Both the position numbers and the translations under genes were made by a program. Below are positions 7,522 through 29,907 of a DNA stretch of 64,000 bases, one piece after another. Origin of the DNA: an uncultured bacterium (GTDB lineage: Bacteria; Patescibacteriota; Minisyncoccia; Phycocordibacterales; DATDWN01); assembly GCA_903870365.1 (NCBI GenBank), contig CAIQCQ010000038.1:7478-71477 (forward strand). Direction: 5' to 3'. Every line of letters begins with the position of its first letter. Position 1 is the stretch's first letter. A model generated the notes under the pieces. That model searched no databases, was not told the DNA's origin, and was given only the letters and a program-made list of their open reading frames with translations.

Positions 7522-8040
7522 TTAACGTGTCAGTGCAATAGTCTGACTCAACTCTGACGCAGTGTTTGCCTCTGGTGCAGAGACGGTGATACGGCCAGTG
7601 GTGGCATCTTTGACCACCTTGTACCCAGTATCATACGTTGATCCATTCAGCGCCCTACCAACAGTTGGATCAATTGGTAACTCTGACATATATGTCGGCA
7701 CCAAACAGCCACGGAGATCAACACCACCACTTGAAGCAATATCCTGAGCAGTAGTAGTAATATCATTAGCAGATGTACAACCAGCAGTGGTAGTAGCTGT
7801 ACCAATAAACAAACCTTGATTGTCGGCCATACGCTGACCAATGGCATTTAAAATAGCTTCGACATTACTCTGACGCTGAGTATTGCGCGCTTGAGCAAAC
7901 TGCCGACTCGGGTTAATAGCCACAATCACAATGGCTGCCAAAATAGCGATAATACCAATAACCACTAAAATCTCGATCAATGTAAAACCTTTTGATCTTT
8001 CCACCTGCTTCTCATTTCTACCAAAGAACAATTTTTTCAT
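7522..8040 (-). CDS. Type IV pilin / pseudopilin with prepilin leader
   Basis: MKKLFFGRNEKQVERSKGFTLIEILVVIGIIAILAAIV, the classic G/FTLIE class III signal; ORF-track N-terminal extension to 8127 is probably spurious. Confidence 0.8.
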   Translation of the reverse strand: MKKLFFGRNEKQVERSKGFTLIEILVVIGIIAILAAIVIVAINPSRQFAQARNTQRQSNVEAILNAIGQRMADNQGLFIGTATTTAGCTSANDITTTAQDIASSGGVDLRGCLVPTYMSELPIDPTVGRALNGSTYDTGYKVVKDATTGRITVSAPEANTASELSQTIALTR

Positions 8041-8259
8041 ATAAATGATAAACATGAATAATACTTTAATCTTACAAAAAAATATTTTTACAGAAAAATT
8101 AAACTGTGGATTACAAGACCTACGCATTCGTTCAATTTCAAACTATTTTTGAAGCAGGATTCGCAAACGTACTGTCGTACGGTGGAGAATCATGCGTAAA
8201 AAATAGAAAGAAATTATACGAACCTGTGGCGAATTGCATATGAGTGCGCAGGTCTTGTA

Positions 8260-8721
8260 TTAATTACTAGATGTCGCAACTGTCCAGGATTGAATAGTAA
8301 TATTTTTTACTCCTGGCATCAGAGCAAACACTGGATTTTTAATAGTTGCAGTGACGACCATATTACTCCACACATCATGTGTATGAGCACTGGCTGTCAC
8401 ATATGCATTTTTTTGGTGATTGACCGTATCCTCGGCACTGTAGACAACCGAAACAATCGTGCACTGATCATCACCAACACTGACCACATCACCACCAGAA
8501 GCAGGTGCATACGTATAATTTTGAGCAATTCTCAACAGAGCCACGTTCCCACACGACTGAGCGAGCAGAGTACTTTGCGCCTGTAACTCATGATCCATCA
8601 AACCAAAGCGCGCCACAAATTGACTGCTACTGGCTGCAATAGACAATCCAATCAAGACAAGAGAAATGACAATAGCTGAAACGAGAGCAATGAATCCTTT
8701 ATTATAATATATTCTATTCAT
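8260..8721 (-). CDS. Pilin-like protein (minor pilin candidate)
   Basis: MNRIYYNKGFIALVSAIVISLVLIGLSIAA has a prepilin-like hydrophobic N-terminus; adjacent to the pilin gene. Confidence 0.45.
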   Translation of the reverse strand: MNRIYYNKGFIALVSAIVISLVLIGLSIAASSSQFVARFGLMDHELQAQSTLLAQSCGNVALLRIAQNYTYAPASGGDVVSVGDDQCTIVSVVYSAEDTVNHQKNAYVTASAHTHDVWSNMVVTATIKNPVFALMPGVKNITIQSWTVATSSN

Positions 8722-8729
8722 ACAAATCA

Positions 8730-8762
8730 TTCCTATTCTATTCGTAATTCTTAATTCTTTCT
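8730..8762. repeat. Heptamer-type repeat, family 3 (ttctattcgtaattcttaattc)
   Basis: Shares the ACGAATTAAGAAT / ATTCTTAATTCGT motif with copies at 14317-14453, 45387-45433, 57221-57293 and 58030-58116. Confidence 0.5.
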
Positions 8763-11509: not shown

Positions 11510-13732
11510 ATGAAAAAGTTTATCACTAACATCACAAAAAAGTTTTCCTCCCCGCGCTTTTTGTCTGGGGTGTTGATGGTAGGGATGATGGTTGTTGTGT
11601 GTATGCCGATAGGTGTATATGCGGATCCATTGGGAACTTGTACTCTTGCGAGTGGCAACAATATGCCCAACCTCGTAACACTAACTGATTGTAATACTTT
11701 TCGTGCAGACGATATTAAAAATGGAAAAACTGGAGGTGGTTGGGTAGCAGATACAGGAGGAGCACAAGGTAATTCAGTCACCCCAGGAAATGCACCAAAA
11801 CCGTCATCATCAATAATACAGGATGTTGCAGAAGGTGCCATAAACACAATCATAGGTAACTTACTTATAGTGGTGATGGCTCTTATATCAGGACTTCTTG
11901 GTCTTGCAGGTCTTGTTTTGGACTATGTTATAAAACTAAGTGTTACAGATCTTGCAAGTAATATTAATAGTATTGCCGGTATCAATGTAGCATGGAGACT
12001 CATTCGTGATCTATGTAACATGTCTTTTATATTTATTCTCCTCTACTACGCCATCATGATGGTATTTGGACAAAAAGATGCGCGTAAAATCATTGTGCCC
12101 ATCATTATTGCCGCACTCCTCATTAATTTTAGTCTGTTTTTTACTAAAATAATTATTGATGCATCAAATATTATTACAGTGTCTTTTTATAATTCTATTT
12201 CTCAAGCAACAGGACCATCAATAGTTCTTGGAGTAAACAACACCAACACCTTTTCCGGGGCTTTTATGAAATCACTCAATCTAAGCAGTATATACTCTTC
12301 TAGTATAAAAGTTCCAGCAGGAAACTCTGGTGTATATATTACTCAAATTATCGGTAGTGCATTATTTATGCTAATTGCTTGTTTTATTTTTCTTGCAATG
12401 GCGGTTCTTTTTATCATTCGTTACCTCACATTTATTTTACTCCTTATCATGTCACCGTTCGGATATGTTGCTTCTGCTATTCCAGGATTAAACGGTCTTT
12501 CAAAAAAATATTGGGAGACACTCACAGGTCAAGCACTTTTTGCTCCGATATTTATGATTATGATTTGGATTACACTGACTTTGGCTAGTAGTTTTACAAT
12601 GGCAACGGGAACAAGTGCAGCAAGTCTTGGTGCTGCTTTTTCCAACCCATCATCAACCACAATCGGAACAATGGTAAATTTCATTTTACTTGCAGGACTA
12701 CTCATATATTCACTTATTATTTCAAAAAGCTATGCAACTCAGGGGGGAATTGTTAGTGGAAAAATAGTCGGGGCGGGAATGGGTATGGCTGGAGGGGCGT
12801 TGTTTGGAGGCGCTTCATACCTAGGCACACGTAGTTTTGGAAAACTTGGAACAATGGCGGCTAACAATGATAGCCTGCGAGAAGCTGCGAGTAAAAAAGG
12901 TGTTGCCGGATCCATGGCAAGACTTAGCCTTAAAACTGCTCAAACTGCACAATCATCGTCCTTTGATGCTCGAAATATATCCGGTTTTGGAAAAGCAACT
13001 GATTTTATAGGGGCTGGTAGTTTTGGTAAAAAGGGTAATGCTCCAAAAGGGTATAAGGGTGTGTTGGATGACAAACAAAAAGCTTACAACGAAGCGGATA
13101 AAAAACGTGCAGAGGGGCTAAAGGTGACTGACACAGTGGCTGATGAAGCAAAGAAAAAACTTGATAAAGAAAAAACACTTAAAGAAGAAAACGCCAAAAA
13201 CTTAGACAATGAAATTGATCTTAAGAAGAAACAAAATAATGATTTAACTCAAGAAATCACAAATCTAGAAAAAGATTTGAAAAAGGCCGTTACCCCAAGA
13301 AAAAGAGCCCGAAACAAAGGAGAAATTTATAGACTACAGACAGTTTTAGAAGACAAAAGATCTACAATTTCAGAATCAAGAGAAAAATTAGCTCAAATAG
13401 AGAAAAATAAAACAAACTTGGATACCGATTTCAATGCTCGTGAAGATATTAAAAAACTTATAAAAGATTCTGGTGGAGATAAAGATAAAAAAATATCAAG
13501 TACAAGTGACGATAGAATAAATTCATATGCTAATACTGTTGGTGATCAAAAAACACGAAATTTTGTCATATTTAATCCTGAATTTAATAAAGAAAGAGCA
13601 CGAAAGATACGTAAACTTGCAAAAACAAAATCAACAAAAGAAACACTTGAAGAGCTTCTCAAAGAAAATGGTGATATAAAAAAAGATGATAAAAAAGAAG
13701 AGACACCTGTAGCAGAACCAAAAACAACATAG
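11510..13732 (+). CDS. Polytopic membrane protein, VirB6/TrbL-like candidate, with long K/E-rich coiled-coil tail
   Basis: Signal peptide, at least 6 predicted TM segments between residues 110 and 420, C-terminal 300 aa of charged heptad-like repeats; call is from genomic context with VirB4, PrgI and pilin genes. Confidence 0.45.
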   Translation: MKKFITNITKKFSSPRFLSGVLMVGMMVVVCMPIGVYADPLGTCTLASGNNMPNLVTLTDCNTFRADDIKNGKTGGGWVADTGGAQGNSVTPGNAPKPSSSIIQDVAEGAINTIIGNLLIVVMALISGLLGLAGLVLDYVIKLSVTDLASNINSIAGINVAWRLIRDLCNMSFIFILLYYAIMMVFGQKDARKIIVPIIIAALLINFSLFFTKIIIDASNIITVSFYNSISQATGPSIVLGVNNTNTFSGAFMKSLNLSSIYSSSIKVPAGNSGVYITQIIGSALFMLIACFIFLAMAVLFIIRYLTFILLLIMSPFGYVASAIPGLNGLSKKYWETLTGQALFAPIFMIMIWITLTLASSFTMATGTSAASLGAAFSNPSSTTIGTMVNFILLAGLLIYSLIISKSYATQGGIVSGKIVGAGMGMAGGALFGGASYLGTRSFGKLGTMAANNDSLREAASKKGVAGSMARLSLKTAQTAQSSSFDARNISGFGKATDFIGAGSFGKKGNAPKGYKGVLDDKQKAYNEADKKRAEGLKVTDTVADEAKKKLDKEKTLKEENAKNLDNEIDLKKKQNNDLTQEITNLEKDLKKAVTPRKRARNKGEIYRLQTVLEDKRSTISESREKLAQIEKNKTNLDTDFNAREDIKKLIKDSGGDKDKKISSTSDDRINSYANTVGDQKTRNFVIFNPEFNKERARKIRKLAKTKSTKETLEELLKENGDIKKDDKKEETPVAEPKTT

Positions 13733-14716: not shown

Positions 14717-15241
14717 ATGAAAAAAGAAATTCTGCCGATTCAAATTATTGAAAACAAAATATATATTATTCGTGGTCTAAAAGTTATGCTGGATAGTGAT
14801 TTGGCACATCTCTATATGGTCAAACCTATTGCATTACGACAACAAGTTAAAAGAAACAAAGAAAGGTTTCCTGGTGACTTTGTATTCCAACTGACAAAAG
14901 AAGAGGCTCACATCCTGGTATCACAAAATGTGATACCTAATAGTCGCTACTTTGGGGGATCATTACCCTATGCATTCACTGAACATGGAGTTGCCATGCT
15001 CTCTTCTGTACTTAAAAGTAAGCGGGCAATAGAAATCAACATTTTGATCATCCGTGCTTTTGTAAAAATTCGTGAAATGTTGTCTGTCCACAAAGATATT
15101 GTTTCAGCCATTGAAAAACTGCAGCGAGAACAGGCTGATCAAAAAGGGCATATAATAGCCATCGTACAAGCAATCAATAAACTACTTGCACCACCAAAAG
15201 AAAAGAGGAAGAATACAATTGGTTTTCGGACGAGAGAGTAG
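14717..15241 (+). CDS. ORF6N-domain (KilA-N/Rha-like) DNA-binding protein
   Basis: IENKIYIIRGLKVMLDSDLAHLYMVKPIALRQQVKRNKERFPGDFVFQLTKEE matches the ORF6N consensus. Confidence 0.6.
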   Translation: MKKEILPIQIIENKIYIIRGLKVMLDSDLAHLYMVKPIALRQQVKRNKERFPGDFVFQLTKEEAHILVSQNVIPNSRYFGGSLPYAFTEHGVAMLSSVLKSKRAIEINILIIRAFVKIREMLSVHKDIVSAIEKLQREQADQKGHIIAIVQAINKLLAPPKEKRKNTIGFRTRE

Positions 15242-15253
15242 TAACATATACCT

Positions 15254-15688
15254 ATGCGTTTTCAAGTTCCACAATTTATTGAAATAGAGGACAAAGTTAT
15301 TGGCCCACTAACCATCAAACAATTTGTTTACCTTGCTGGTGGTGCGGGCATGGCTTTTGTGGCATATACATTTCTCCCTGGATTTATCGCTCTGTTTGTT
15401 ATTGCGGGCATCATTGGTTTGGCTCTTGCTTTAGCTTTTTATAAAGTAAACAACAAACCATTCATTGATATGCTCGAGTCTGCGTTTGGTTTTTACACTG
15501 GAGAAAAACTATACATCTGGAAAAAAGTAGATAAAAAAATAATTCCAAAAGAACAAGCGACCGGACAAGAAGAACTTCGTGAGGTATACGTACCTCGTTT
15601 GTCAGATAGTAAATTAAAAGAATTGAGTTGGAGTTTAGATGTAAATGAAAATTTAGGAGGAGGGAAAGAGACAAGAGATAAGAGATAA
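15254..15688 (+). CDS. PrgI-family (VirB3-like) small membrane protein
   Basis: IEIEDKVIGPLTIKQFVYLAGGAGMAFVAY followed by a second TM helix; the last residues ETRDKR are encoded by repeat family 1. Confidence 0.5.
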   Translation: MRFQVPQFIEIEDKVIGPLTIKQFVYLAGGAGMAFVAYTFLPGFIALFVIAGIIGLALALAFYKVNNKPFIDMLESAFGFYTGEKLYIWKKVDKKIIPKEQATGQEELREVYVPRLSDSKLKELSWSLDVNENLGGGKETRDKR

Positions 15689-15760
15689 GAGATACGAACA
15701 AAAAATATCCTACTCATTTTTCTTATTTCATATCTCTTATCTCAAATCTCATATCTCTAT
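15665..15760. repeat. Heptamer-type palindromic repeat, family 1, no cargo
   Basis: Left arm gagacaagagataagagataagagatacg, right arm tcatatctcttatctcaaatctcatatctctat, about 30-nt loop. Confidence 0.6.
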
Positions 15761-15777
15761 GTTATAATTTACCCACC

Positions 15778-16425
15778 ATGGCCACTAGTGCTCCACAATC
15801 AAAAGCAACACAAGACTTTGTTCCCATCCAAGAAGTACGTGATGGCATCATCACCCTCAAAGACGGGTCTCTTCGTGCAATTCTCCTCGCTTCATCACTC
15901 AACTTTTCTCTCAAATCAGAAGACGAACGCAACGCGATCCTGTTTCAATTTCAAGATTTTCTCAACTCACTCGATTTTCCTGTCCAAATAGCTATCCAGT
16001 CACGTCGATTGGATATTCGACCATATATTGCACTACTCGAAGACCGCTACAAGGAGCAGGTCAATGACCTCATGAAGATACAAACTCAAGAGTACATTGA
16101 GTTCATCAAGAATTTTACTGAAAACACCAACATTATGACCAAAAGTTTTTTTGTTGTCGTACCATACACACCAGCTATTCTCAAAGGGGAGTCACTTACT
16201 AAATTTAATTTTCTTGGTAAACAAACCCAAAGCGAAAAAGCTTCACAAAAAACAGAAAGTTTCGAAGAAAACCGTACACAAATCGAGCAACGTCTCGGGG
16301 TTGTAGAACAAGGTCTCGTCAGCTCTGGTGTTCGTGTCGTCCGTCTTGGTACCGAAGAGGTGATCGAATTATTTTACAAGATTTTCAATCCTGGTGACAC
16401 CGAAAAACCTATCAAATTGAGCTAG
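15778..16425 (+). CDS. VirB4/TraE-family ATPase, N-terminal fragment (CagE_TrbE_VirB-like domain)
   Basis: PIQEVRDGIITLKDGSLRAILLASSLNFSLKSEDERNAILFQFQDFLNSLDFPVQIAIQSRRLDI matches the N-terminus of Gram-positive-type VirB4 proteins; the ORF stops at a 10-bp hairpin and continues as 16890..18695. Confidence 0.55.
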   Translation: MATSAPQSKATQDFVPIQEVRDGIITLKDGSLRAILLASSLNFSLKSEDERNAILFQFQDFLNSLDFPVQIAIQSRRLDIRPYIALLEDRYKEQVNDLMKIQTQEYIEFIKNFTENTNIMTKSFFVVVPYTPAILKGESLTKFNFLGKQTQSEKASQKTESFEENRTQIEQRLGVVEQGLVSSGVRVVRLGTEEVIELFYKIFNPGDTEKPIKLS

Positions 16426-16444
16426 TAAGTTCAATTTGATAGGT

Positions 16445-16868
16445 TATAGAGATAAGAGATTTGAGAAATGAGATATGAAAAATCCATCTGATGAAAAAGA
16501 AACAATTAAAAAATTTTCTGATTTATCTGCATGGCAAGAGGGCCACCGTCTTGTAATTCAGGTATACACCATAACAAAATTTTTTCCTAAAGAAGAATTA
16601 TTCGGAATTACAAACCAAATCAGAAGAGCTGTTGTTTCTATTACTTCAAATATTGCGGAGGGTTTTGGTAGAGGAACAAGTCAGGATAGAGTTCATTTTT
16701 ATATTATAGCAATCGGATCACTTAATGAGGTGCAGAATCAGTTGCTTATATCAAAAGATATCGGTTATTTAAATCACACAGAATGGAATGAATTAGAAAA
16801 ACAAGGTATCATTGTACACAAGATACTCAGTGGTTTGATTAGAAAATCCAAATCAAATCTCTTATCTC
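16445..16868 (+). mobile_element. Inverted-repeat-flanked cassette with a four-helix-bundle gene inserted in virB4
   Basis: GAGATAAGAGATTTGA at 16449-16464 and its perfect reverse complement TCAAATCTCTTATCTC at 16853-16868 bracket CDS 16475..16879. Confidence 0.5.
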
Positions 16869-16879
16869 AAATCTCATAA
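16475..16879 (+). CDS. Four-helix-bundle protein (23S rRNA intervening-sequence protein family)
   Basis: WQEGHRLVIQVYTITKFFPKEELFGITNQIRRAVVSITSNIAEGFGR...SLNEVQNQLLISKDIGYL is the family signature. Confidence 0.75.
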   Translation: MKNPSDEKETIKKFSDLSAWQEGHRLVIQVYTITKFFPKEELFGITNQIRRAVVSITSNIAEGFGRGTSQDRVHFYIIAIGSLNEVQNQLLISKDIGYLNHTEWNELEKQGIIVHKILSGLIRKSKSNLLSQIS

Positions 16880-16889
16880 CTCTATTCAC

Positions 16890-18695
16890 ATGTCCCTACT
16901 CGATTTTTTAAAAAAGAAAGAACCTCTCCAGATCACCTCTATCCTGCCACAGGAAATATACGAGGCGGGCGCTTTGGAGTTGGCTGATGTTATCGCTCCA
17001 TCAGCACTCAAAATCAGTCCAAAAGAACTCAACTTGGGTGAAAAAATCGTCCGATCGTTTTTTGTTATCTCATATCCACGATATCTCAATGAAAGTTGGT
17101 TTGCGCCGATCATTAATTTGGACAAAGTTTTTGATATTTCCATCTATATAGAGCCGATTGAAACAGCCGCTGCACTCAAATCCTTTCAGAAAAAAGTGGC
17201 CGAGGTGCAAAGTCAAATCATGACTCGAGAAGAAAAGGGTTTGGTCCGAAACCCCATGCTCGATACTGCATATCAAGACCTCGAGCAACTTCGTGACAAT
17301 CTCCAGCAAGCCCAGGAGAAGCTTTTTAATGTTGGAGTGTATATCACTATGTATGGCGACAAGACAGAGGAGCTCGACAAAATCGAATCTGAAATCAAAT
17401 CTATCCTCGAAGCCAAGCTCGTGTATGTCAAACCCGCTCTCTTTCAACAAGAGCAAGCCTTTAAAACTGTGATGCCTGTTGCGACCGATCTTCTTGGTGT
17501 CTATAGTAAACTTAATTCTTCACCCCTCTCATCACTCTTTCCTTTTATTTCTTTTGACCTGACTTCTGACAAAGGTATTTTGTACGGCGTCAACCGCCAC
17601 AACTCATCCCTCGTCCTCTTTGATCGTTTTTCTTTGGAAAACTATAACTCTATTACCTTTGCAAAGTCTGGTTCCGGAAAATCATACGCTACCAAGCTGG
17701 AAATCTTGCGAACCCTCATGTTTGATACCTCGGTCATGGTTCTCGACCCAGAAAATGAATATGAGTACATGGCTGAAGCTGTTGGTGGACGACATTTCAA
17801 TATCTCACTCAACTCTGAACACCACATCAACCCCTTTGACCTGCCAATACCGACAGAAGGTGAGTCCTTTGCCAATGTCTTACGATCAAACATCGTCAAC
17901 CTTGTTGGACTCTTTCGTATTATGATGGGAGGTCTCACGCCAGAAGAAGATGCGATCATTGACCGAGCTATCACTGAAACATATGCACTAAAAGACATAA
18001 CTGCTGATTCTGATTTTACCAACACCGAGCCACCACTCCTCTCTGATTTTGAATTGGTGCTCTCTGGTATGGAAGGGGGGGATTCACTGGCTCAACGATT
18101 GACAAAATACACCAAGGGTACTTGGGCTGGTTTTATCAACCGTCCCACAAACATCGACATCAACAAAAAGTTTGTAATTTTTTCTATCCGTGACATGGAA
18201 GACGAGCTCAAGCCGATCGCTATGTATATCATCATGCATTATATCTGGGCAGCTATCCGACGTGACTTGAAAAAACGTCTCCTCGTCATTGATGAAGCCT
18301 GGTGGATGATGAAATCAGAGGACACCGCATCATTCCTCTTGTCACTCGCAAAACGGGGCCGAAAATACTACCTTGGTGTAGCTACTATTACCCAAGACGT
18401 GGATGACTTTTTGAAGTCACCGTACGGTCTACCGATCATCACCAACTCATCTATCCAAGTCTTACTCAAACAATCACCATCATCTGTCGACAAACTACAG
18501 CAAACATTTAACCTGACAGACGAAGAAAAATATTTACTCCTCGAATCAGCTGTGGGGGAGGGTATATTCTTTGCTGGTCTCAAACATGTGGCAATCAAGA
18601 TTATTGCCAGCTACACCGAAGATCAGATCATCACCTCTGATCCAAGCCAGATTTTGGCAATCAAGAAAGCGAAGATGGGATTGGCTAAGAGTTAA
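16890..18695 (+). CDS. VirB4/TraE-family T4SS ATPase, C-terminal part with ATPase domain
   Basis: Walker A FAKSGSGKSYATK, Walker B RLLVIDEAWWMM, ITQDVDDF; its N-terminal 200 aa (IAPSALKISPKELNLGEKIVRSFFVISYPRYL) match the second half of the VirB4 N-domain. Confidence 0.85.
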   Translation: MSLLDFLKKKEPLQITSILPQEIYEAGALELADVIAPSALKISPKELNLGEKIVRSFFVISYPRYLNESWFAPIINLDKVFDISIYIEPIETAAALKSFQKKVAEVQSQIMTREEKGLVRNPMLDTAYQDLEQLRDNLQQAQEKLFNVGVYITMYGDKTEELDKIESEIKSILEAKLVYVKPALFQQEQAFKTVMPVATDLLGVYSKLNSSPLSSLFPFISFDLTSDKGILYGVNRHNSSLVLFDRFSLENYNSITFAKSGSGKSYATKLEILRTLMFDTSVMVLDPENEYEYMAEAVGGRHFNISLNSEHHINPFDLPIPTEGESFANVLRSNIVNLVGLFRIMMGGLTPEEDAIIDRAITETYALKDITADSDFTNTEPPLLSDFELVLSGMEGGDSLAQRLTKYTKGTWAGFINRPTNIDINKKFVIFSIRDMEDELKPIAMYIIMHYIWAAIRRDLKKRLLVIDEAWWMMKSEDTASFLLSLAKRGRKYYLGVATITQDVDDFLKSPYGLPIITNSSIQVLLKQSPSSVDKLQQTFNLTDEEKYLLLESAVGEGIFFAGLKHVAIKIIASYTEDQIITSDPSQILAIKKAKMGLAKS

Positions 18696-19237: not shown

Positions 19238-20266
19238 ATGAAATTTTTTTCTAAAACTTTTATTTTTTTTCTTATTCTAGCTTCAAGCTTGTTGCTTCCA
19301 GCTTCTATTCCTGCCCACGCCCAGCTCAATGTTGGTCTCAGTCCTGCTGATATTTCAACTGATGTCGAGCCAACAAATCCTGGACCATTTCAACAAATCA
19401 GTGTCACCATAGACAGTTATGCCACCGACCTCAATGGGGTCAGTATTTCCTGGGTAGTTAATGGAAAAAAGGTTGTCTCTGGTATTGGTAAAAAGGGTAT
19501 CAGTCTGACCACCGGAGCCATTGGTAAACAAACCTCTATTAATATCACCATCGACTCTATTACCGGCACCATTACCAAAAACATCACCATTATCCCAGCC
19601 ACAGTGGATATGATATGGGAAGCCAACACATATACTCCACCATTTTTTAAAGGTAAAGCCATCTTTAGTCCAGAAAGTGTGGTGACATTTGTAGCAATAC
19701 CGCACCTCATACGAAACGGGGTAGAGGTCTCACCAAAAAATCTCATATACACATGGTCAAACAACGGCACTGTCCTCGGTAGTCAAAGTGGCTATGGTAA
19801 AAGTACCCTCAGTATCGCGGGCAGTATCATCCCACGACCCTTTGATATCACGGTAGAGGCTAGTGATCCGAACACAGGCTCTGTGGCCGACGGAGAGACT
19901 GTTTTGGCATCACAGACTCCTTTTGTACTCTTTTATAAAAATGATCCACTCTACGGAGTACAGTACGAACATGCACTGACTGGTGTTATTCCACTCACCA
20001 CACAGGAAATGGAGATCACTGCAGTCCCATATTACTTTAGTGCTCGATCTATGTTTGATAATCTCCTTTCCTACAATTGGGAAATCAATGGTACACCGAT
20101 CGGTGACGGTATAAACAGTCCGGACAAAGTCTTTCGCCGTACAGGCACAGCTGTTGGACAATCAAATGTTTCAGTGTCAACGACACAGAGTGCTACAATG
20201 TTTCAGACAGCCAACCAGGCAGTAACAATTGATTTTCAGAATAGTAGTACGCAAGTAGGGTTGTAG
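19238..20266 (+). CDS. Secreted protein with cleavable signal peptide
   Basis: MKFFSKTFIFFLILASSLLLPASIPAHAQ then a beta-rich Thr/Ser/Gly-rich region. Confidence 0.4.
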   Translation: MKFFSKTFIFFLILASSLLLPASIPAHAQLNVGLSPADISTDVEPTNPGPFQQISVTIDSYATDLNGVSISWVVNGKKVVSGIGKKGISLTTGAIGKQTSINITIDSITGTITKNITIIPATVDMIWEANTYTPPFFKGKAIFSPESVVTFVAIPHLIRNGVEVSPKNLIYTWSNNGTVLGSQSGYGKSTLSIAGSIIPRPFDITVEASDPNTGSVADGETVLASQTPFVLFYKNDPLYGVQYEHALTGVIPLTTQEMEITAVPYYFSARSMFDNLLSYNWEINGTPIGDGINSPDKVFRRTGTAVGQSNVSVSTTQSATMFQTANQAVTIDFQNSSTQVGL

Positions 20267-20342: not shown

Positions 20343-21347
20343 ATGAGAAAAAATACACAAAAAACTATTTTGAATATACTGCGGGTGACCATGATCAGTG
20401 CTTTTTTGTTTGCGAGTGCGACCTCGATCGCTATGGCGCAAGCACAAACGCCACAACCTTATACGGTATTAGCACCACTTCCGGGAACAACAATTGATGC
20501 AAATTGCACAGGTACAGCATGCACAAGTGATCTCTCTCATTATCTTCCCGGTATTTTTAATCTCATGATCGGTGTGGCGGCAGTGGCAGCCTTTGTCGCC
20601 ATTACTATTGGTGGTTTTGAATATATGTTTACTGATGTTCCAGGGGTTAAAGCGAGTGCAAAAGGTATGGTGTCCAATGCCTTTTGGGGTCTTGGTTTTA
20701 TTATTTTTGCTTATGCCATCCTCAATACCATCAACCCAGTGCTCCTCAAGGGAAGTTTGAATATTACTCCGCCAACAGTGGCAAGTGGTGGTGGACTAAC
20801 CACAGGAACTGGTGGTGCCACAACAAATGTCGGTGGAAATATCGCTGGAGTTGCAATGACAACAGATCAACAGACAGCATCAGATGCTGTGAGAGCAGCT
20901 TTAAAATCCCAAAGTGGTGGAGTTGTTACGGCTTATGCAGATCCTTGTACAAGGGGTCAAACAACTGGTTGTGTTGATTTAAATGGATTAACACCATCAA
21001 CCCAAAATGGTTTAGAATTATTGGGGAAAAATTGTGGTAGTGGATGTAAGGTTGTTATAAGTGGTGGTACCGAGGCGGGACACAGTACTGGATCAGATCA
21101 CAATAAAGGTAACGGTGTTGATATTGAACCAAACGCACAACTTACAAACGCTGTAACAAATAATTTATCTAATGATCCTTCTATTTGTAAAGCGGGGGCA
21201 GGAGGAACTTGTAATGGCCTTGCAGCATGTAATAAATATACAACATCAGTTGGTGGACAGACTGCAACTTATCTTTGGGAACCCACAGGTTCAACGTGTG
21301 GAGGAAATGTTCCTTCATCAGCTCCTCATTGGCATGCAAGCTTTTAA
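20343..21347 (+). CDS. T4SS pilin-like (VirB2/TrbC-like) N-terminus fused to a LAS/M15-type metallopeptidase-like C-terminal domain
   Basis: Signal peptide; LPGIFNLMIGVAAVAAFVAITIGGFEYMFTD...AFWGLGFIIFAYAILNTINP is a two-helix pilin pattern; C-terminus has GHSTGSDHNKGNGVDI (SxHxxGxAxD-like) and APHWHASF (EPWH-like) zinc-ligand motifs. Confidence 0.45.
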   Translation: MRKNTQKTILNILRVTMISAFLFASATSIAMAQAQTPQPYTVLAPLPGTTIDANCTGTACTSDLSHYLPGIFNLMIGVAAVAAFVAITIGGFEYMFTDVPGVKASAKGMVSNAFWGLGFIIFAYAILNTINPVLLKGSLNITPPTVASGGGLTTGTGGATTNVGGNIAGVAMTTDQQTASDAVRAALKSQSGGVVTAYADPCTRGQTTGCVDLNGLTPSTQNGLELLGKNCGSGCKVVISGGTEAGHSTGSDHNKGNGVDIEPNAQLTNAVTNNLSNDPSICKAGAGGTCNGLAACNKYTTSVGGQTATYLWEPTGSTCGGNVPSSAPHWHASF

Positions 21348-21352
21348 CTCAT

Positions 21353-22612
21353 ATGAAAAATATTCTTAAAATTTCAACTATTGTCCTCGGTATTATTGCA
21401 GTAGGGTTACTGTACTATTATTTCTTTTTCTTTAAAGCTAGTACACCGACAATCAACACATCGACAAAACCCAGTTCAACCAACTTCTTTCCTTTTGGTC
21501 AGGGTGGTACGACAGGTAACACAACTAAACCAAACACCAATACAAACCCCACCACTCAACAACTTCAGCAAGCGAGTAATTATCTCCAAAAACTTCGCCT
21601 CATTTCCAACGAACCCGTTGCTGGCGCCACATTCATCGAAAACAAAAATACAGTTATTATCCGTTACATAGAAAAAGCTACGGGACATATTTATGATGTC
21701 TCTACTAATTCTGCGACCATTAACCAAATTTCCAACACCACTTTACCAAAAATTCATGAGGCTTTCTTTACCGACCTTGGTCTTGGACTGATTGCTCGCT
21801 CTGTCGGAGATGATGGAGAAAGTATCCAGACTATTTATTCAAAACTACCAGCCAGTGTGGCCACAACTACGCAAAAAATAGCCTCAAGCAGTATACTCAC
21901 ACTAAACCCACTTGTTCTACAAACAAATATTCCTTTTTTGACCGTCTCTCCATCAACCAAAAATATCTTTTATACTCAAAAGAGTTTTGCTGGTAGTACT
22001 GGCATCATCGCCCTCTCAAACGGCACAAGTAAAAAACAAATCTGGAGTTCTCCGGTACGCAGTGTCTACCCACAATTTTCAGGGGAAAACACTGTCCTGG
22101 TCACGACCGCACCCAATGCATCCGTCTATGGCTATGCTTACTTGGTCAACACCAAAACGGGTGGAGTCAAAAACATTCTCGGTAATATCTATGACCTTTC
22201 CGTCTTTGCTAATACCACTGGTACTGATTTTGTATACTATACCAGTGCAAGTGGGGGACAATTCTTTCATTATGTTCTTGCAAATAGCTCCACCACCCCA
22301 CTGACACCAACAACCTTCCCTGAGAAATGTGTCTTTGATACCTCAAGTAAAACATCACTCTATTGTGCAGTGCCAAATGATTCGCTCTCACAAAATTCGC
22401 TTGATAACTGGTATCTTGGACTGAACTCGTACTCTGACAGTATCTGGAAATATGACCTCAAAGCAGGAACCTCTCAAATGATCGAGGATCTTTCATCCAA
22501 TGCTGGGCGAAATATTGACGTCATCAATATGCATATCAACACCGTTGGTTCACTCCTCCTGTTTCAAAGTAAGACAGATGGAAGTTTATGGAGTTTGAAT
22601 GTGGGAGCGTAG
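21353..22612 (+). CDS. Membrane-anchored protein with large extracytoplasmic beta-rich domain
   Basis: MKNILKISTIVLGIIAVGLLYYYFFFF TM anchor then a Thr/Asn-rich linker; the ORF-track start at 21275 overlaps the upstream gene, so the ATG at 21353 is preferred. Confidence 0.4.
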   Translation: MKNILKISTIVLGIIAVGLLYYYFFFFKASTPTINTSTKPSSTNFFPFGQGGTTGNTTKPNTNTNPTTQQLQQASNYLQKLRLISNEPVAGATFIENKNTVIIRYIEKATGHIYDVSTNSATINQISNTTLPKIHEAFFTDLGLGLIARSVGDDGESIQTIYSKLPASVATTTQKIASSSILTLNPLVLQTNIPFLTVSPSTKNIFYTQKSFAGSTGIIALSNGTSKKQIWSSPVRSVYPQFSGENTVLVTTAPNASVYGYAYLVNTKTGGVKNILGNIYDLSVFANTTGTDFVYYTSASGGQFFHYVLANSSTTPLTPTTFPEKCVFDTSSKTSLYCAVPNDSLSQNSLDNWYLGLNSYSDSIWKYDLKAGTSQMIEDLSSNAGRNIDVINMHINTVGSLLLFQSKTDGSLWSLNVGA

Positions 22613-24026: not shown

Positions 24027-24173
24027 CTACTTTTCCGATGATACAGACAATGATTTTCGGCCTTTTCGGCGTCTCTGAAGAAGGGTTCGTCGGCCCCCAG
24101 CAGTCTTTGTACGAGCAAGAAAGCCGTGTGTAGTAGCTCGTTTTCGTTTTTTTGGATTATATGTGAATGACAT
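24027..24173 (-). CDS. rpmH: 50S ribosomal protein L34
   Basis: Hand-translated [48 protein letters not shown]; below the 60-aa ORF-track cutoff. Confidence 0.8.
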
Positions 24174-27744: not shown

Positions 27745-29907
27745 TTAGTTATAGCCATGGGCAGTAGCCCAGGCTCTAACCCCATACTCCCAGTATTTAA
27801 ACTGTGGATCCTGATTTGGATCAGCCGGCTGTGGTCCACGAGGATCGTCCTTGTTTACCCAATAGAGAATAGAGTGCACTCCACCTGTTAACGTCTCCTG
27901 AATCGAATTGTAGGGCATATTAGGGTCTGCTGTCTGTGACTGTGTAATATTTGAAATACCTCCTTGCCATTTACCACGCAAAACAGGTTTGAGATCATAA
28001 GAATTAGTGTCTTGAGGTTTGGTAAAGGTGTCAGTCGTTGGATACTTACTGACTATTTGATCCATAAAAGCTCGCCACATAGGCACAACAATCAAACCAG
28101 ACACTTTATGTGCCATCGGAGTGTTGTCGTTGTTTCCAGCCCAGGTGCCAACCACTAGGTCTGGTGTATAGCCAATAACCCACGCATCTCGGTAGTCGTT
28201 GGTCGTACCAGTCTTGGCAGCGACATCACGACCAGGGAAGTAGAGTCCAGAGTTGGCACCATAGAGTGGTGTACGAGCGACATTATCAGAGAGGACGTCT
28301 GTAATTTCTCTGGAAACTTGTGGATCAAGCACTTGGTCACTCTTTGGCGCGTACTGTTCGAGGATATTTCCTTGTGCATCATCAATCTCGAGAATACTGG
28401 TGTATGGATTGCGCACACCATCGTCAGCAAAAACACCATATGCCGAAGTCATATCAAGCAGAGAGACTTCACCACCTCCCAGTACCAAGGTGAGGCCGTA
28501 TTGGTTTGGATTACCAAGCGAGGTAATACCCATACTTTCAGCCAAGTCGATAGAATCTTGAACACCAGCGAGATACATCAGTTTGACTGAGGGCACGTTG
28601 ATTGACTGAGCGAGGGCGTCTCGAGTGGTCATGGGACCACGAAAATTGTCGTCGTAGTTGACCGGTGCATAACAACCATTTTCACTGGTAAAATTATCAA
28701 CCGCACATGTGGTTTGAAACTGAGTGGGAACGTCGAAGAGGACTGTGTCGGGTGTGTAGCCTTTAATATAGGCTTCAGCGTACACAAATGGTTTAAAGGC
28801 GGATCCTGGCTGACGGTGTGAGGTGGCCACATTAAACTGCCCATCTATTTCTGTATCAAAAAAATTTCGTGAACCAACCATGGTGAGGATTTGTCCAGTT
28901 TTTGGGTCAATAGCCACAAATGCATCATTGGAACCATTAAAGTTTTTCTCGTTTGAAGTGGCGTATTGTAATGCTACCGCTTCAGCTTTTTGTTCCATAT
29001 CATAATCAAGAGTAGTGATCACTTTGAGACCACCATTTTGTAATACATCGTCACCATATTTTTGTTGGAGATAATTCATCACATACGTCACAAAATGGGG
29101 GGCTTTGATACCAGCGTCTGTTTTTGGAAGGAAGGACACGGTTTCTTTTTGGGCCTGTGTGTATTGATCCTGTGTAATATAGCCATTATTGAGCATTTCC
29201 TTTAAGACAACATTTTTACGAGCATCAAGATCTGCTTTGTGTGTGCCATATGGGGAATAGTACGATGGAGCTTGGGGCATAGAAGCAAGATATGCAGCTT
29301 GGGCAATATCCACATCAGACGCACTAATACCAAAATACGCTTCACTAGCTTCTTCGACACCATAGTTACTCCCACCATAGGGAATAGCATTGAGATATGT
29401 GTTAAAAATTTGATCTTTTGTCTCAGCTTTTTCTAATTTGAAAGAGAGGATAAGCTCTTTTAATTTACGAACAGGACTTTTGTCATTTGTGAGAAGAGTG
29501 TTTTTAACTACTTGTTGAGTAATAGTTGAACCACCCTGACTAAAAGAAAGGGAGGTGATGTTTACAAGGAGAGATCGAAGAATAGAAGTAAAAACAACGG
29601 CTCCATGAGTATAGAAATTTCTGTCTTCGATAGAGAGAGTGGCTTGTTTAATATACGGAGAAATATTTTCAAAAGGGATAACCGTCCTTTTTTTGTCTTG
29701 AAAGATATCGTACAAGACAATTTTCCCCGTACGATCGTATATTTTGGTAGATTGAGTAACTTGGGCTTGTTGAATACTGTCTATACTAGGGATTTTAATA
29801 TTGGCAAGCCAAATAAGAATGATACCAATAAGGATGGCAAAAATACCACAAAGAAAAAGAAAAATATTTTTCCATCCTGTTAGAGTTTTTGGTAATGAAC
29901 GTTTCAT
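27745..29907 (-). CDS. Class A penicillin-binding protein (bifunctional glycosyltransferase/transpeptidase, PBP1A-like)
   Basis: GT51 motifs EDRNFYTHGAV and GGSTITQQ; transpeptidase SxxK/SxN/KTG region; N-terminal TM. Confidence 0.9.
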   Translation of the reverse strand: MKRSLPKTLTGWKNIFLFLCGIFAILIGIILIWLANIKIPSIDSIQQAQVTQSTKIYDRTGKIVLYDIFQDKKRTVIPFENISPYIKQATLSIEDRNFYTHGAVVFTSILRSLLVNITSLSFSQGGSTITQQVVKNTLLTNDKSPVRKLKELILSFKLEKAETKDQIFNTYLNAIPYGGSNYGVEEASEAYFGISASDVDIAQAAYLASMPQAPSYYSPYGTHKADLDARKNVVLKEMLNNGYITQDQYTQAQKETVSFLPKTDAGIKAPHFVTYVMNYLQQKYGDDVLQNGGLKVITTLDYDMEQKAEAVALQYATSNEKNFNGSNDAFVAIDPKTGQILTMVGSRNFFDTEIDGQFNVATSHRQPGSAFKPFVYAEAYIKGYTPDTVLFDVPTQFQTTCAVDNFTSENGCYAPVNYDDNFRGPMTTRDALAQSINVPSVKLMYLAGVQDSIDLAESMGITSLGNPNQYGLTLVLGGGEVSLLDMTSAYGVFADDGVRNPYTSILEIDDAQGNILEQYAPKSDQVLDPQVSREITDVLSDNVARTPLYGANSGLYFPGRDVAAKTGTTNDYRDAWVIGYTPDLVVGTWAGNNDNTPMAHKVSGLIVVPMWRAFMDQIVSKYPTTDTFTKPQDTNSYDLKPVLRGKWQGGISNITQSQTADPNMPYNSIQETLTGGVHSILYWVNKDDPRGPQPADPNQDPQFKYWEYGVRAWATAHGYN

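What the first reader, a model, noticed from the sequence alone, without database searches (positions are those of the whole stretch)
20343..21347. Pilin-like N-terminus fused to a LAS/M15-type zinc peptidase motif set
Residues about 40-135 have the signal peptide plus two-helix pattern of VirB2/TrbC-type T4SS pilins (LPGIFNLMIGVAAVAAFVAITIGGFEYMF...AFWGLGFIIFAYAILNTINP). The C-terminal part carries SDHNKGNGVDI (SxHxxGxAxD-like) and APHWHASF (EPWH-like), which match the zinc-ligand motifs of VanY/M15 peptidoglycan peptidases. A cell-wall hydrolase anchored through a pilin-like segment could be the missing VirB1-type wall-piercing enzyme of this T4SS-like system.
Basis: inference. Interest (0 to 1): 0.55.

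Follow-up and report, generated by a model that had tools for sequence, protein, structure and literature searches.

The report
Secretion-system pilin fused to wall peptidase
This gene of an ultra-small (Patescibacteria) bacterium joins a conjugation-type pilus subunit to what is most likely a zinc cell-wall peptidase. The fusion is widespread and I found no description of it; it may explain how these bacteria get their essential secretion machine through a cell wall without a separate wall-cutting enzyme.

Summary
ORF 20343..21347 (+, 334 aa) encodes a signal peptide, a two-helix VirB2-like pilin domain (Pfam T4SS_pilin: 26.3 bits here against a cutoff of 26.6; 134 of 147 relatives match), a disordered Gly/Thr linker and a 165-aa C-terminal domain.

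Across 147 diverse relatives, the only invariant non-cysteine residues are H247, H253, D260, E313, H329 and H331. They line up in order with the active-site set of Sonic hedgehog and the DD-peptidases (H-x5-H-x6-D, Glu, H-x-H).

Independent support for a LAS/M15-type domain is consistent but weak:
- PDB profile search: hedgehog N-domains only, E about 0.05.
- Pfam Peptidase_M15_4: matched end to end in a 41%-identical homologue, 23.7 bits against a cutoff of 25.
- Foldseek: best hits are hedgehog-like or M15A, but short and not significant.
- hhalign: probability 26% or less.
- Zinc-site geometry could not be checked.

The gene has a fixed place in a conserved T4SS operon beside oriC. In at least one relative that place holds a pilin fused to a bona fide VanY domain. 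The family has at least 2,411 clusters at 50% identity and is unnamed.

The architecture is confirmed. The peptidase identity is probable (about 0.75). The VirB1-substitute role is plausible but untested. This is a new variant of a known kind.

The parts
20343..21347 (+). Whole gene: pilin-peptidase fusion, 334 aa plus stop codon
   Evidence: ORF list and sequence. The same 334-aa product is called in public assemblies. 73 close homologues and 2,411 cluster representatives.
20343..20444 (+). Signal peptide, residues 1 to about 32-34: basic n-region MRKNTQKTILNILR, hydrophobic core, then A30-M-A32 / A32-Q-A34 cleavage motifs
   Evidence: Read directly from the sequence. The hydrophobic peak is centred on residues 17-21. 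A32/A34 are at least 90% conserved. The cleavage site is inferred.
20460..20486 (+). Invariant YTVLAPLPG motif (residues 40-48), at or near the mature N-terminus
   Evidence: Y40, L43, P45 and P47 are invariant or nearly so. Its function is unknown.
20532..20732 (+). VirB2-like pilin hairpin: helices 64-96 and 100-130, with the D98/K103 loop between them
   Evidence: Pfam T4SS_pilin residues 70-130, E 7.9e-6. NCBIfam Mbov_0395 pilin-like family, E 0.0016. AlphaFold2 helices with pLDDT about 90. 134 of 147 relatives hit T4SS_pilin.
20763..20849 (+). Gly/Thr-rich flexible linker (residues 141-169)
   Evidence: pLDDT below 50 for residues 141-163. Length and sequence vary in the alignments.
20850..21344 (+). 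C-terminal globular domain (residues 170-334), probably a LAS (hedgehog/DD-peptidase-like) zinc peptidase
   Evidence: AlphaFold2 pLDDT 89.7, pTM 0.87. PDB profile hits are hedgehog N-domains only, E 0.055. A homologue matches Peptidase_M15_4 end to end at 23.7 bits against a cutoff of 25. Foldseek top hits are hedgehog-like or M15A but not significant.
21063..21122 (+). Motif GGTEAGHSTGSDHNKGNGVD (residues 241-260): E244, H247, H253-x6-D260. H253 and D260 are the proposed zinc ligands.
   Evidence: H247, H253 and D260 are invariant in 147 sequences. The motif aligns to Shh DEDGHHSEESLHYEGRAVD with identical spacing.
21279..21281 (+). E313, the proposed catalytic base (equivalent to Shh E177)
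   Evidence: Invariant. It aligns to Shh E177 in the relaxed hhalign alignment. The role of E177 is taken from PMC6027127.
21327..21335 (+). H329-W-H331, an H-x-H motif on the last beta-strand. H331 is the proposed third zinc ligand.
   Evidence: H329 and H331 are invariant and W330 is at least 90% conserved. The motif aligns to Shh H181-I-H183.
20946..21047 (+). Four conserved cysteines (C202, C210, C231, C235), likely two disulfides. The protein has 10 Cys in total.
   Evidence: C210 is invariant; C202, C231 and C235 are at least 90% conserved. Positions. Disulfide pairing is inferred.
15254..18695 (+). Operon context: PrgI/VirB3-like (15254-15688), TrsD/VirB4 N-terminal-like (15778-16425), an inserted 23S-IVP gene (16475-16879) and the VirB4 ATPase (16890-18695)
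   Evidence: Pfam. NCBIfam conju_CD1110, 371 bits against a cutoff of 325, and TrsD.
11510..13732 (+). Polytopic membrane protein of 740 aa, in the position of a VirB6/PrgH-like channel subunit
   Evidence: Many hydrophobic segments in the translation. Proteins of similar size occupy the same position in relatives. No family hit, so the assignment is inferred.
19238..20266 (+). Conserved upstream neighbour: secreted 342-aa protein of unknown function
   Evidence: The translation carries a signal peptide. A protein of 285-351 aa precedes the fusion gene in L001-L005. No family hits.
21353..22612 (+). Conserved downstream neighbour: membrane-anchored 419-aa protein of unknown function, starting 6 nt after the stop codon
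   Evidence: A protein of 405-540 aa follows the fusion gene in L001-L005.

Best explanation
The gene encodes the only VirB2-like pilin of a chromosomal, oriC-proximal, Gram-positive-type (MPF-FATA-like) type IV secretion system in a Paceibacteria/Zambryskibacteria-like member of the Patescibacteria. Its C-terminus is extended by a flexible linker and a divergent LAS-clan (hedgehog/DD-peptidase, M15-like) zinc peptidase domain.

Proposed mechanism. These steps are inferred, not shown:
1. Sec export and signal-peptide cleavage leave the two pilin helices as a membrane hairpin, with the short D98/K103 loop in the cytoplasm.
2. Both termini are then outside, so the disulfide-bonded peptidase domain sits in the cell-wall zone on a tether of about 30 residues.
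3. H253, D260 and H331 hold a zinc ion. E313 activates water. H247 and H329 assist catalysis.
4. The domain cuts peptide bonds in peptidoglycan stem peptides or cross-links at the place where pilin is recruited by VirB4/VirB6.
5. This local cutting opens the wall for the secretion channel or pilus, which is the job VirB1-type hydrolases do elsewhere.
6. If the subunit polymerises, the enzyme would also be displayed along the pilus and could act on the wall of the host cell.
For: Shown:
- Architecture and confident two-domain models.
- The family is large: 2,411 representatives at E <= 1e-3.
- The only invariant polar residues are H247, H253, D260, E313, H329 and H331. They are collinear with Shh H135, H141, D148, E177, H181 and H183. 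The defining DD-peptidase motifs H-X6-D and H-X-H, and the catalytic Glu, are taken from PMC6027127.
- The profile of the domain hits only hedgehog N-domains in the PDB, 20 chains at E 0.055-0.4.
- The domain HMM scores Shh at 9.8 bits and a VanY domain at 6.9 bits. Both exceed all 2,420 composition-matched shuffles, whose maximum is 5.8.
- Homologue P0019 matches Pfam Peptidase_M15_4 over profile positions 2-70 of 70, E 7.4e-5 (1.9e-5 for the domain alone).
- Foldseek best hits are Indian hedgehog (PDB) and a hedgehog-like Microviridae protein (E 0.017, probability 1.0, rmsd 1.9 over 57 columns). Peptidase M15A ranks fourth in that viral-library (BFVD) search.
- The gene position is fixed: VirB4, a small gene, a gene of about 340 aa, the fusion, a gene of about 410 aa, then yidC, rnpA and dnaA.
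- In L005 the gene flanked the same way (VirB4 and a 331-aa gene upstream, a 413-aa gene downstream) is a pilin plus a bona fide VanY domain, 47 bits against a cutoff of 25. Two further pilin ORFs (L071, L074) end in a VanY-like (E/N)xWHW motif.
- One family member also carries an SLT transglycosylase domain.
- There is only one pilin-domain ORF per locus, and no hydrolase domain was found in the other operon proteins.
- The protein has 10 Cys, an even number that fits an extracytoplasmic location.
- The organism makes peptidoglycan: relatives have a PBP1 gene at the matching position.
- The literature reports that VirB1 is mostly missing from Patescibacteria that carry VirB2 (PMC12102498).
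Against: - The window protein has no Pfam, NCBIfam or PHROG peptidase hit of its own.
- hhalign probabilities are low: 12-26% against Shh, 7% against an M15C/CwlK profile and 4% against VanY. At default settings only the 17-33 columns around H-x6-D align.
- Foldseek E-values are not significant. They cover only about 55 of 165 residues, with TM-scores of 0.25-0.35.
- The full-length 147-sequence profile found nothing in the PDB.
- Zinc-site geometry was not checked.
- Some orthologues in the same gene position have lost proposed ligands: Q in place of H253, and HFS in place of HWH. Catalysis is therefore not required in every lineage.
- Nothing shows that the substrate is peptidoglycan, whose wall is cut, or that this long pilin polymerises.
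Confidence: 0.6

Rival explanations
1. Host-directed weapon or adhesin. The fusion polymerises into a pilus whose surface displays the peptidase domain. That domain cuts or grips the cell wall of the host bacterium on which the epibiont lives, rather than remodelling the producer's own wall.
For: - Patescibacterial T4SS and pilins are essential for epibiotic growth, and the system lacks relaxase and coupling proteins (PMC10633639; PMC12102498).
- A C-terminal extension of a VirB2-type pilin would face outward. This rests on the established topology and pilus structures of VirB2/TraA pilins, from my own knowledge.
- A long flexible linker separates the domains.
- The domain at this gene position diversifies (HWH, HWD, HFH, HFS and VanY types), as expected for a surface that meets the host.
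Against: - Polymerisation of a 300-aa VirB2-type subunit has never been shown.
- Some cultured Paceibacteria-related lineages live on archaeal hosts (PMC12102498), and archaea have no peptidoglycan (general knowledge).
- The catalytic residues are very strictly conserved across 147 diverse sequences. That fits a housekeeping target better than an arms race.
Confidence: 0.25
2. Non-catalytic module. The C-terminal domain keeps a LAS-like scaffold but acts as a metal-dependent binding or structural domain, as argued for hedgehog ligands. It would, for example, anchor the pilin or pilus to peptidoglycan stem peptides.
For: - The closest sequence and fold matches are hedgehog N-domains, not enzymes.
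- Orthologues in the same gene position have Q for H253 and S for H331. This parallels Drosophila Hh, which has H-X6-T and H-X-Y (PMC6027127).
Against: The main family keeps all three ligands plus the catalytic Glu and both auxiliary His residues invariant. In some genomes the same gene position holds an ordinary VanY enzyme domain.
Confidence: 0.1
3. The C-terminal domain is not a LAS relative at all. It is a new disulfide-rich, His-rich fold, and its short H-x6-D and H-x-H strings resemble the LAS motifs by convergence or chance.
For: - No search reached conventional significance: hhalign probability 26% or less, Foldseek E of 0.017 or worse over about 55 columns, PDB hmmsearch E 0.055.
- A confident model (pTM 0.87) still has no global structural neighbour in the PDB.
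Against: - Every weak hit from four independent methods falls in the same clan (hedgehog, M15_4, M15A, VanY).
- All six invariant residues are collinear with the LAS active site, with identical spacing in the first motif.
- The order of predicted secondary-structure elements around the motifs (helix, strand, Zn loop, strand, helix, beta-hairpin carrying E and HxH) matches my recollection of the Shh fold.
- P0019 covers the whole M15_4 model.
Confidence: 0.15

Closest known systems
VirB2-like pilins of the Patescibacteria T4SS (Pfam T4SS_pilin PF18895; Quinonero-Coronel et al. 2025, PMC12102498; Wang et al. 2023, PMC10633639)
   Same: - The same Pfam family.
- The same operon partners: PrgI, TrsD, VirB4 and a VirB6-like protein.
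- The same location next to dnaA, dnaN and rnpA.
   Different: The published descriptions concern short pilins, often in arrays of 2-11 genes. Here there is a single pilin gene per locus, and it carries a C-terminal domain of about 165 aa. Neither paper mentions a pilin-peptidase fusion: a term search of PMC12102498 for M15, VanY and 'fused' found nothing relevant.
Hedgehog/DD-peptidase (LAS) zinc peptidases: Sonic hedgehog N-domain, Streptomyces albus DD-peptidase, MEROPS M15 (Roelink 2018, PMC6027127)
   Same: - The motifs H-x6-D and H-x-H, a catalytic Glu just before the H-x-H, and an extra His five residues before the first ligand. All are invariant.
- These proteins are the best PDB and Foldseek hits.
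   Different: - Similarity is confined to the motifs and a core of about 55 residues.
- This domain has an extra N-terminal helix and a CxxxxxxxC loop, plus variable Cys-rich insertions.
- It shows no sign of the hedgehog calcium site.
- It is attached to a pilin.
- Statistical support is below family-membership levels.
Pfam Peptidase_M15_4 / M15C L-alanyl-D-glutamate peptidases (CwlK, phage T5 endolysin, PDB 2MXZ)
   Same: - The window protein's S-x-H-x-x-G-x-[AG]-x-D (SDHNKGNGVD) matches the family's SKHxTGxAxD.
- Homologue P0019 aligns to the full 70-position model.
   Different: - These enzymes have a single C-terminal His (D-G-x-H-x-E) rather than H-W-H.
- Profile-profile probability is only 7%.
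- The median score of 120 real M15C proteins against the domain HMM is barely above shuffled sequences; 18% exceed the 99th percentile of the shuffles.
VirB1-type T4SS peptidoglycan hydrolases of monoderms (PrgK, TraG of pIP501, TrsG, CD419)
   Same: Proposed role: local wall opening for a Gram-positive-type T4SS. Like them, this protein is membrane-anchored and encoded in the operon (PMC12102498).
   Different: - Those enzymes have SLT/lysozyme and CHAP/NlpC domains and are not pilins.
- Here the chemistry would be a zinc peptidase and the anchor is the pilin itself.
- There is no homology; the resemblance is functional only and is inferred.
Modular type IV pilins (T4P) carrying extra functional modules, such as Streptococcus sanguinis PilB and PilC
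   Same: The concept of a pilin scaffold with a globular functional module grafted onto its C-terminus (recalled from memory, not tested here).
   Different: This is a different pilus superfamily: class III signal peptide and T4P machinery, as opposed to VirB2-type and T4SS. The modules in those pilins are adhesive, not peptidase-like.

Membership tests
T4SS_pilin (PF18895) / VirB2-TrbC-type conjugative pilins | Significant match to the family profile | tested here: met
   The window protein matches with E 7.9e-6 and 26.3 bits, 0.3 bits under the gathering score of 26.6. 134 of 147 family members match at E < 0.01, the best at 8.3e-14. Ten also match TrbC PF04956. NCBIfam Mbov_0395 pilin-like, E 0.0016.
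T4SS_pilin (PF18895) / VirB2-TrbC-type conjugative pilins | Cleavable signal peptide followed by two hydrophobic helices joined by a short polar loop | tested here: met
   Signal peptide with AxA sites. AlphaFold2 helices 64-96 and 100-130. The loop has conserved D98 and K103.
T4SS_pilin (PF18895) / VirB2-TrbC-type conjugative pilins | Encoded with VirB3, VirB4 and VirB6 components | tested here: met
   PrgI, TrsD, VirB4 (CD1110 family, 371 bits) and a polytopic 740-aa protein lie upstream. The order is conserved in L001-L004.
T4SS_pilin (PF18895) / VirB2-TrbC-type conjugative pilins | Polymerises into an extracellular pilus | not testable with these tools
   Needs microscopy or biochemistry. 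No pilus has been shown for any Paceibacteria-type system in the papers read.
LAS / hedgehog-DD-peptidase zinc peptidases (MEROPS clan MD, M15-like) | H-X(6)-D motif supplying two zinc ligands | tested here: met
   H253-NKGNGV-D260. Both residues are invariant in 147 sequences. The motif definition is from PMC6027127. Some relatives have H-x7-D.
LAS / hedgehog-DD-peptidase zinc peptidases (MEROPS clan MD, M15-like) | H-X-H motif supplying the third ligand | tested here: met
   H329-W-H331 on the last strand, with both His invariant. Variants HWD, HFH and HFS occur in diverged orthologues at the same gene position.
LAS / hedgehog-DD-peptidase zinc peptidases (MEROPS clan MD, M15-like) | Catalytic Glu (Shh E177 equivalent) shortly before the H-X-H | tested here: met
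   E313 is invariant. In short members the spacing is E-x2-H-x-H, for example LKESNHWHV, against Shh YESKAHIH.
LAS / hedgehog-DD-peptidase zinc peptidases (MEROPS clan MD, M15-like) | Statistically significant sequence-profile relationship to a member family | tested here: inconclusive
   - PDB hmmsearch: E 0.055-0.09 for the best-scoring hedgehog chains, up to about 1 for the weakest, and nothing else of note.
- hhalign: P 7e-4 to 6e-3, probability 4-26%.
- Pfam M15_4: best 23.7 bits against a cutoff of 25 in P0019; none for the window protein.
- Shh and VanY score above all 2,420 shuffles.
LAS / hedgehog-DD-peptidase zinc peptidases (MEROPS clan MD, M15-like) | Hedgehog/DD-peptidase alpha/beta sandwich fold | tested here: inconclusive
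   The model is confident (pLDDT 89.7, pTM 0.87). The best Foldseek hits are Indian hedgehog (E 0.7, 52 columns) and a hedgehog-like viral protein (E 0.017, 57 columns, rmsd 1.9). No hit reaches E <= 0.001.
LAS / hedgehog-DD-peptidase zinc peptidases (MEROPS clan MD, M15-like) | His/Asp/His triad clustered around a zinc ion; peptidase activity | not testable with these tools
Activity needs experiment.
VanY (PF02557, M15B D,D-carboxypeptidase) | Match to the VanY profile, including the S-x-H-x-x-G-x-A-x-D and E-x-x-H motifs | tested here: not met
   No VanY hit for the window protein or its family. The C-terminal motif is H-W-H, not E-P-W-H. hhalign against the VanY domain of P0073 gives 4% probability. 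VanY proper does occur in a relative (P0073) at the same place in the VirB4 cluster.
VirB1-type T4SS hydrolases (SLT, CHAP/NlpC) | Lytic transglycosylase or CHAP/NlpC domain | tested here: not met
   There are no such Pfam hits in this protein. The analogy is functional only.

The most novel reading that the evidence does not exclude
In Paceibacteria-type Patescibacteria, the T4SS pilus subunit is itself an enzyme. Every pilin carries a tethered zinc peptidoglycan peptidase. The growing pilus or channel therefore cuts its own way through the producer's wall. It may also cut through the wall of the host cell it contacts. This would replace VirB1 and turn a conjugative-type pilus into a wall-piercing organelle.
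Probability: 0.2. Interest if true: 0.8.

Novelty: new variant of a known kind. Interest (0 to 1): 0.62.

Why it matters
Patescibacteria make up a large share of bacterial diversity. Their T4SS is the first shown to be essential for the growth of the bacterium that carries it (PMC10633639; PMC12857230), yet its function and assembly are not known. [quoted passage not shown]

A widespread pilin that carries its own probable wall peptidase gives a concrete, testable answer to that puzzle. It would also be the first VirB2-type pilin I know of that carries a catalytic-type module. Finally, it gives a probable functional label to the C-terminal halves of thousands of proteins that are named only as hypothetical or not named at all (at least 2,411 clusters at 50% identity).

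Tried and rejected
- A Foldseek search with the full-length model returned only coiled-coil and histidine-kinase noise driven by the long helices. I repeated it with the domain alone.
- The full-length 147-sequence profile found nothing in the PDB. Only the domain-only profile was informative.
- PHROGs gave nothing for the domain.
- tblastn of the domain against 50,697 phage records gave no match.
- hhalign against a purpose-built M15C/CwlK profile (alignment A5, built from homologues of the T5 endolysin sequence verified against PDB 2MXZ) aligned only 17 columns at 7% probability. I therefore do not file the domain in M15C.
- VanY membership was rejected.
- Two genome-contig scans, one with the domain alignment and one with the single protein, failed. 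The full-length alignment worked.
- I considered the alternative start at Met17, which gives the 318-aa P0001. I rejected it because it removes the basic n-region that homologues have, and because the 334-aa product is also on record.
- I considered an integrated conjugative element. I rejected it because the operon has the same chromosomal neighbours (yidC, rnpA, dnaA, dnaN, PBP1, tyrS) in distant relatives.
- I looked for further pilin paralogues in the window and the loci and found none at E < 1.
Full report
**1. What is in the sequence**

ORF 20343..21347 on the + strand encodes 334 aa. Public gene calls contain the same 334-aa product (P0328) and a shorter 318-aa call from Met17. I keep the long form because it alone has the basic n-region seen in homologues.

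**2. Genomic setting**

- The window comes from a Patescibacteria (CPR) chromosome around oriC. On the minus strand lie rpmH (24027-24173), rnpA and yidC, facing dnaA (24413) and dnaN on the plus strand. The cumulative GC skew has its minimum near 20-24 kb.
- The + strand from about 9.7 to 22.6 kb is a T4SS operon of the Gram-positive type. It holds a polytopic 740-aa protein, PrgI (VirB3-like), a TrsD / VirB4 N-terminal-like gene, a VirB4 ATPase (NCBIfam CD1110 family, 371 bits against a cutoff of 325), three proteins with no family match, and the gene of interest.
- No convincing terminator separates the gene from its neighbours. The next gene starts 6 nt after its stop codon.
- This operon type, and its place next to dnaA, has been described (PMC12102498).

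**3. The N-terminal half is a VirB2-like pilin**

- Pfam T4SS_pilin matches residues 70-130 with E 7.9e-6 and 26.3 bits, just under the gathering score of 26.6.
- At family level the assignment is clear. 134 of 147 relatives match, the best at 8e-14, and 10 also match TrbC/VirB2.
- AlphaFold2 predicts a signal-peptide helix, then helices 64-96 and 100-130 with pLDDT about 90.
- An HMM of this domain finds exactly one ORF in the 64-kb window and one in each of the syntenic loci L001-L005. It is therefore the only recognisable pilin gene in each of those loci.

**4. The C-terminal half**

*Structure.* Residues 141-163 are disordered and Gly/Thr-rich. Residues 170-334 fold confidently on their own (pLDDT 89.7, pTM 0.87).

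*Family size.* A profile of this domain retrieves 2,411 cluster representatives (50% identity) at E <= 1e-3, and 1,354 at E <= 1e-10. Nearly all are 270-340 aa with the domain at the C-terminus.

*Conservation.*
- In an alignment of 147 such sequences the invariant residues are C210, H247, H253, D260, E313, H329 and H331. C202, C231, C235, G241, G242, E244 and W330 are at least 90% conserved.
- The pattern H-x5-H-x6-D ... E ... H-x-H is the active-site set of Sonic hedgehog and the DD-peptidases. H141, D148 and H183 bind zinc, and E177 is the catalytic base. The family is defined by H-X6-D and H-X-H (PMC6027127).
- The first motif has exactly the spacing of Shh (DEDGHHSEESLHYEGRAVD).
- Short family members read ...FLKESNHWHVVF against Shh ...VYYESKAHIHCSV.

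**5. How strong is the link to LAS peptidases?**

Every method points to the same clan, but none is decisive.

- (a) hmmsearch of the domain profile against all PDB sequences returns 20 hedgehog chains at E 0.055-0.4, one weaker hedgehog hit and one unrelated thiolase at E 0.75.
- (b) Five of 30 members hit Pfam Peptidase_M15_4, the best at 1.9e-5. Homologue P0019 (41% identical) covers the model end to end (positions 2-70 of 70, residues 219-292) at 23.7 bits against a cutoff of 25.
- (c) The best Foldseek hits for the domain model are Indian hedgehog in the PDB (E 0.7, 52 columns, rmsd 2.5) and a hedgehog-like Microviridae protein in BFVD (E 0.017, probability 1.0, 57 columns, rmsd 1.9). Peptidase M15A ranks fourth in BFVD. 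Nothing reaches E <= 0.001.
- (d) hhalign gives a P-value of 7e-4 to 6e-3 but a probability of only 6-26% against Shh. I verified that Shh sequence as identical to PDB 6E1H chain C. With relaxed settings the alignment runs through the whole domain and pairs all six residues. Against a CwlK/T5-endolysin profile the probability is 7%.
- (e) With a 147-sequence domain HMM, Shh scores 9.8 bits and a VanY domain 6.9 bits. Both exceed all 2,420 shuffled controls, whose maximum is 5.8.
- (f) The six-residue regular expression matched only family members among 1,358 ORFs.

I conclude that the domain is probably (about 0.75) a divergent, unannotated member of the LAS / clan MD peptidases. It is closer in motif layout to the hedgehog/DD-peptidase type than to VanY.

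**6. Evidence from relatives**

- The gene order VirB4, a small gene, a gene of about 340 aa, the fusion, a gene of about 410 aa, yidC(-), rnpA(-), dnaA, dnaN, PBP1(-), tyrS is kept in four distant relatives (L001-L004).
- On a short contig (L005) the gene flanked the same way by VirB4, a 331-aa gene and a 413-aa gene is a pilin fused to a bona fide VanY domain (PF02557, 47 bits against a cutoff of 25).
- I surveyed the 85 loci fetched up to that point: 80 from GTDB species-representative genomes, labelled Zambryskibacteria, Parcubacteria, Paceibacterota and Nomurabacteria, plus L001-L005.
  - Most pilin-domain ORFs carry a C-terminal extension of 150-200 aa.
  - About 50 of 89 have the HWH-type domain.
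  - Others end in HWD, HFH or HFS.
  - Three end in the VanY-like (E/N)xWHW.
  - Only a handful are bare pilins.
- In the HFS group the first ligand is often Gln and the last is Ser, so those copies may be inactive.
- One family member also has an SLT transglycosylase domain.
- Replacement by a recognised peptidoglycan peptidase at the same gene position is, to my mind, the best independent argument for the function.

**7. Mechanism**

*Shown:* the architecture, the conservation and the operon context.

*Inferred:*
- After signal-peptide cleavage the two helices form a membrane hairpin with both ends outside. This follows from an even number of membrane spans after the cleaved signal peptide, and from the known topology of VirB2. 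The peptidase domain therefore lies in the wall zone on a linker of about 30 residues.
- Ten cysteines, including four conserved ones, fit an extracytoplasmic, disulfide-bonded protein.
- The organism makes peptidoglycan: the window ORF at 27745-29907 (-) lies where relatives have PBP1 with Transgly and Transpeptidase domains.
- No other hydrolase domain was detected in the operon. The literature notes that VirB1 is mostly missing in Patescibacteria that carry VirB2.
- The most economical reading is a self-contained, pilin-tethered wall peptidase that does the VirB1 job.
- Whether the subunit polymerises, and whether the enzyme also or instead acts on the host wall, is open.

**8. Novelty**

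- Patescibacterial VirB2-like pilins near virB4 and dnaA are known (PMC12102498; PMC10633639; PMC12857230).
- None of the papers that matched my searches describes a pilin-peptidase fusion. Term searches of the 2025 survey (PMC12102498) for M15, VanY and 'fused' found nothing relevant.
- All database copies I saw are unnamed or labelled 'hypothetical protein'.
- I rate it a new variant of a known kind, with interest 0.62. The architecture is solid and widespread, and it bears directly on an open question about an essential machine. The enzymatic identity rests on convergent but individually weak evidence, and the function is untested.

Noticed in passing
window 14717-15241 and 16475-16879: Two small genes interrupt the T4SS operon here but not in the syntenic loci L001 and L002. 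One is an ORF6N-domain gene. The other is a 23S-rRNA-IVP / bAvd-like four-helix-bundle gene, lying between the TrsD-like gene and virB4. L003 and L004 have 23S_rRNA_IVP genes at other positions in the same operon. The pattern looks like recurrent insertion of a small mobile or accessory gene.
   Followed up: partly
L003 10001-10999 (P0066); also P0058, P0060 and P0063; L038, L042-L044, L051 and L052: Orthologues of the fusion gene vary in the proposed metal ligands. Some have HWD in place of HWH. Others have HFS, and P0058, P0060 and P0063 also have Gln in place of H253. This parallels the ligand loss in Drosophila Hedgehog, and these copies may be inactive or use a different metal. P0066 lies at the same gene position as the window gene.
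   Followed up: partly
L005 2722-4137 (P0073); L071 and L074: In L005 the gene flanked like the window's fusion gene (VirB4 and a 331-aa gene upstream, a 413-aa gene downstream) encodes a pilin domain followed by a bona fide VanY domain, preceded by a long N-terminal extension. In L071 and L074 the pilin ORF ends in a VanY-like (E/N)xWHW motif. Different peptidase modules appear to be interchangeable on this pilin.
   Followed up: partly
window 15778-16425 and 16890-18695: VirB4 is encoded as two genes. A 215-aa TrsD / VirB4 N-terminal-like protein is followed by a 601-aa ATPase. The split is conserved in relatives, where the first gene is annotated PF26593 TraC-like.
   Followed up: partly
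window 7522-8127 (-) and 8260-8730 (-): The gene at 7522-8127 has a type IV pilin N-terminal methylation motif (PF07963), and the gene at 8260-8730 has a similar hydrophobic N-terminus. They lie just upstream of the T4SS operon, so T4P and T4SS genes are adjacent.
   Followed up: no
window 19238-20266 and 21353-22612: Two proteins of unknown function always flank the fusion gene in relatives. One is secreted (342 aa) and the other is membrane-anchored (419 aa). They are candidates for further lineage-specific T4SS parts. Neither has a Pfam, NCBIfam or PHROG hit.
   Followed up: partly
window 20460-20486: The motif YTVLAPLPG lies just after the predicted signal-peptide cleavage site and is invariant across the family. 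Its role is unknown; it could be a processing or recognition signal for pilin maturation.
   Followed up: no
alignment A3 (one of 147 family members): One pilin-peptidase family member also matches the SLT lytic transglycosylase domain (E 1.6e-8). It would then carry two different wall-cutting modules on one pilin. I did not identify which member it is.
   Followed up: no
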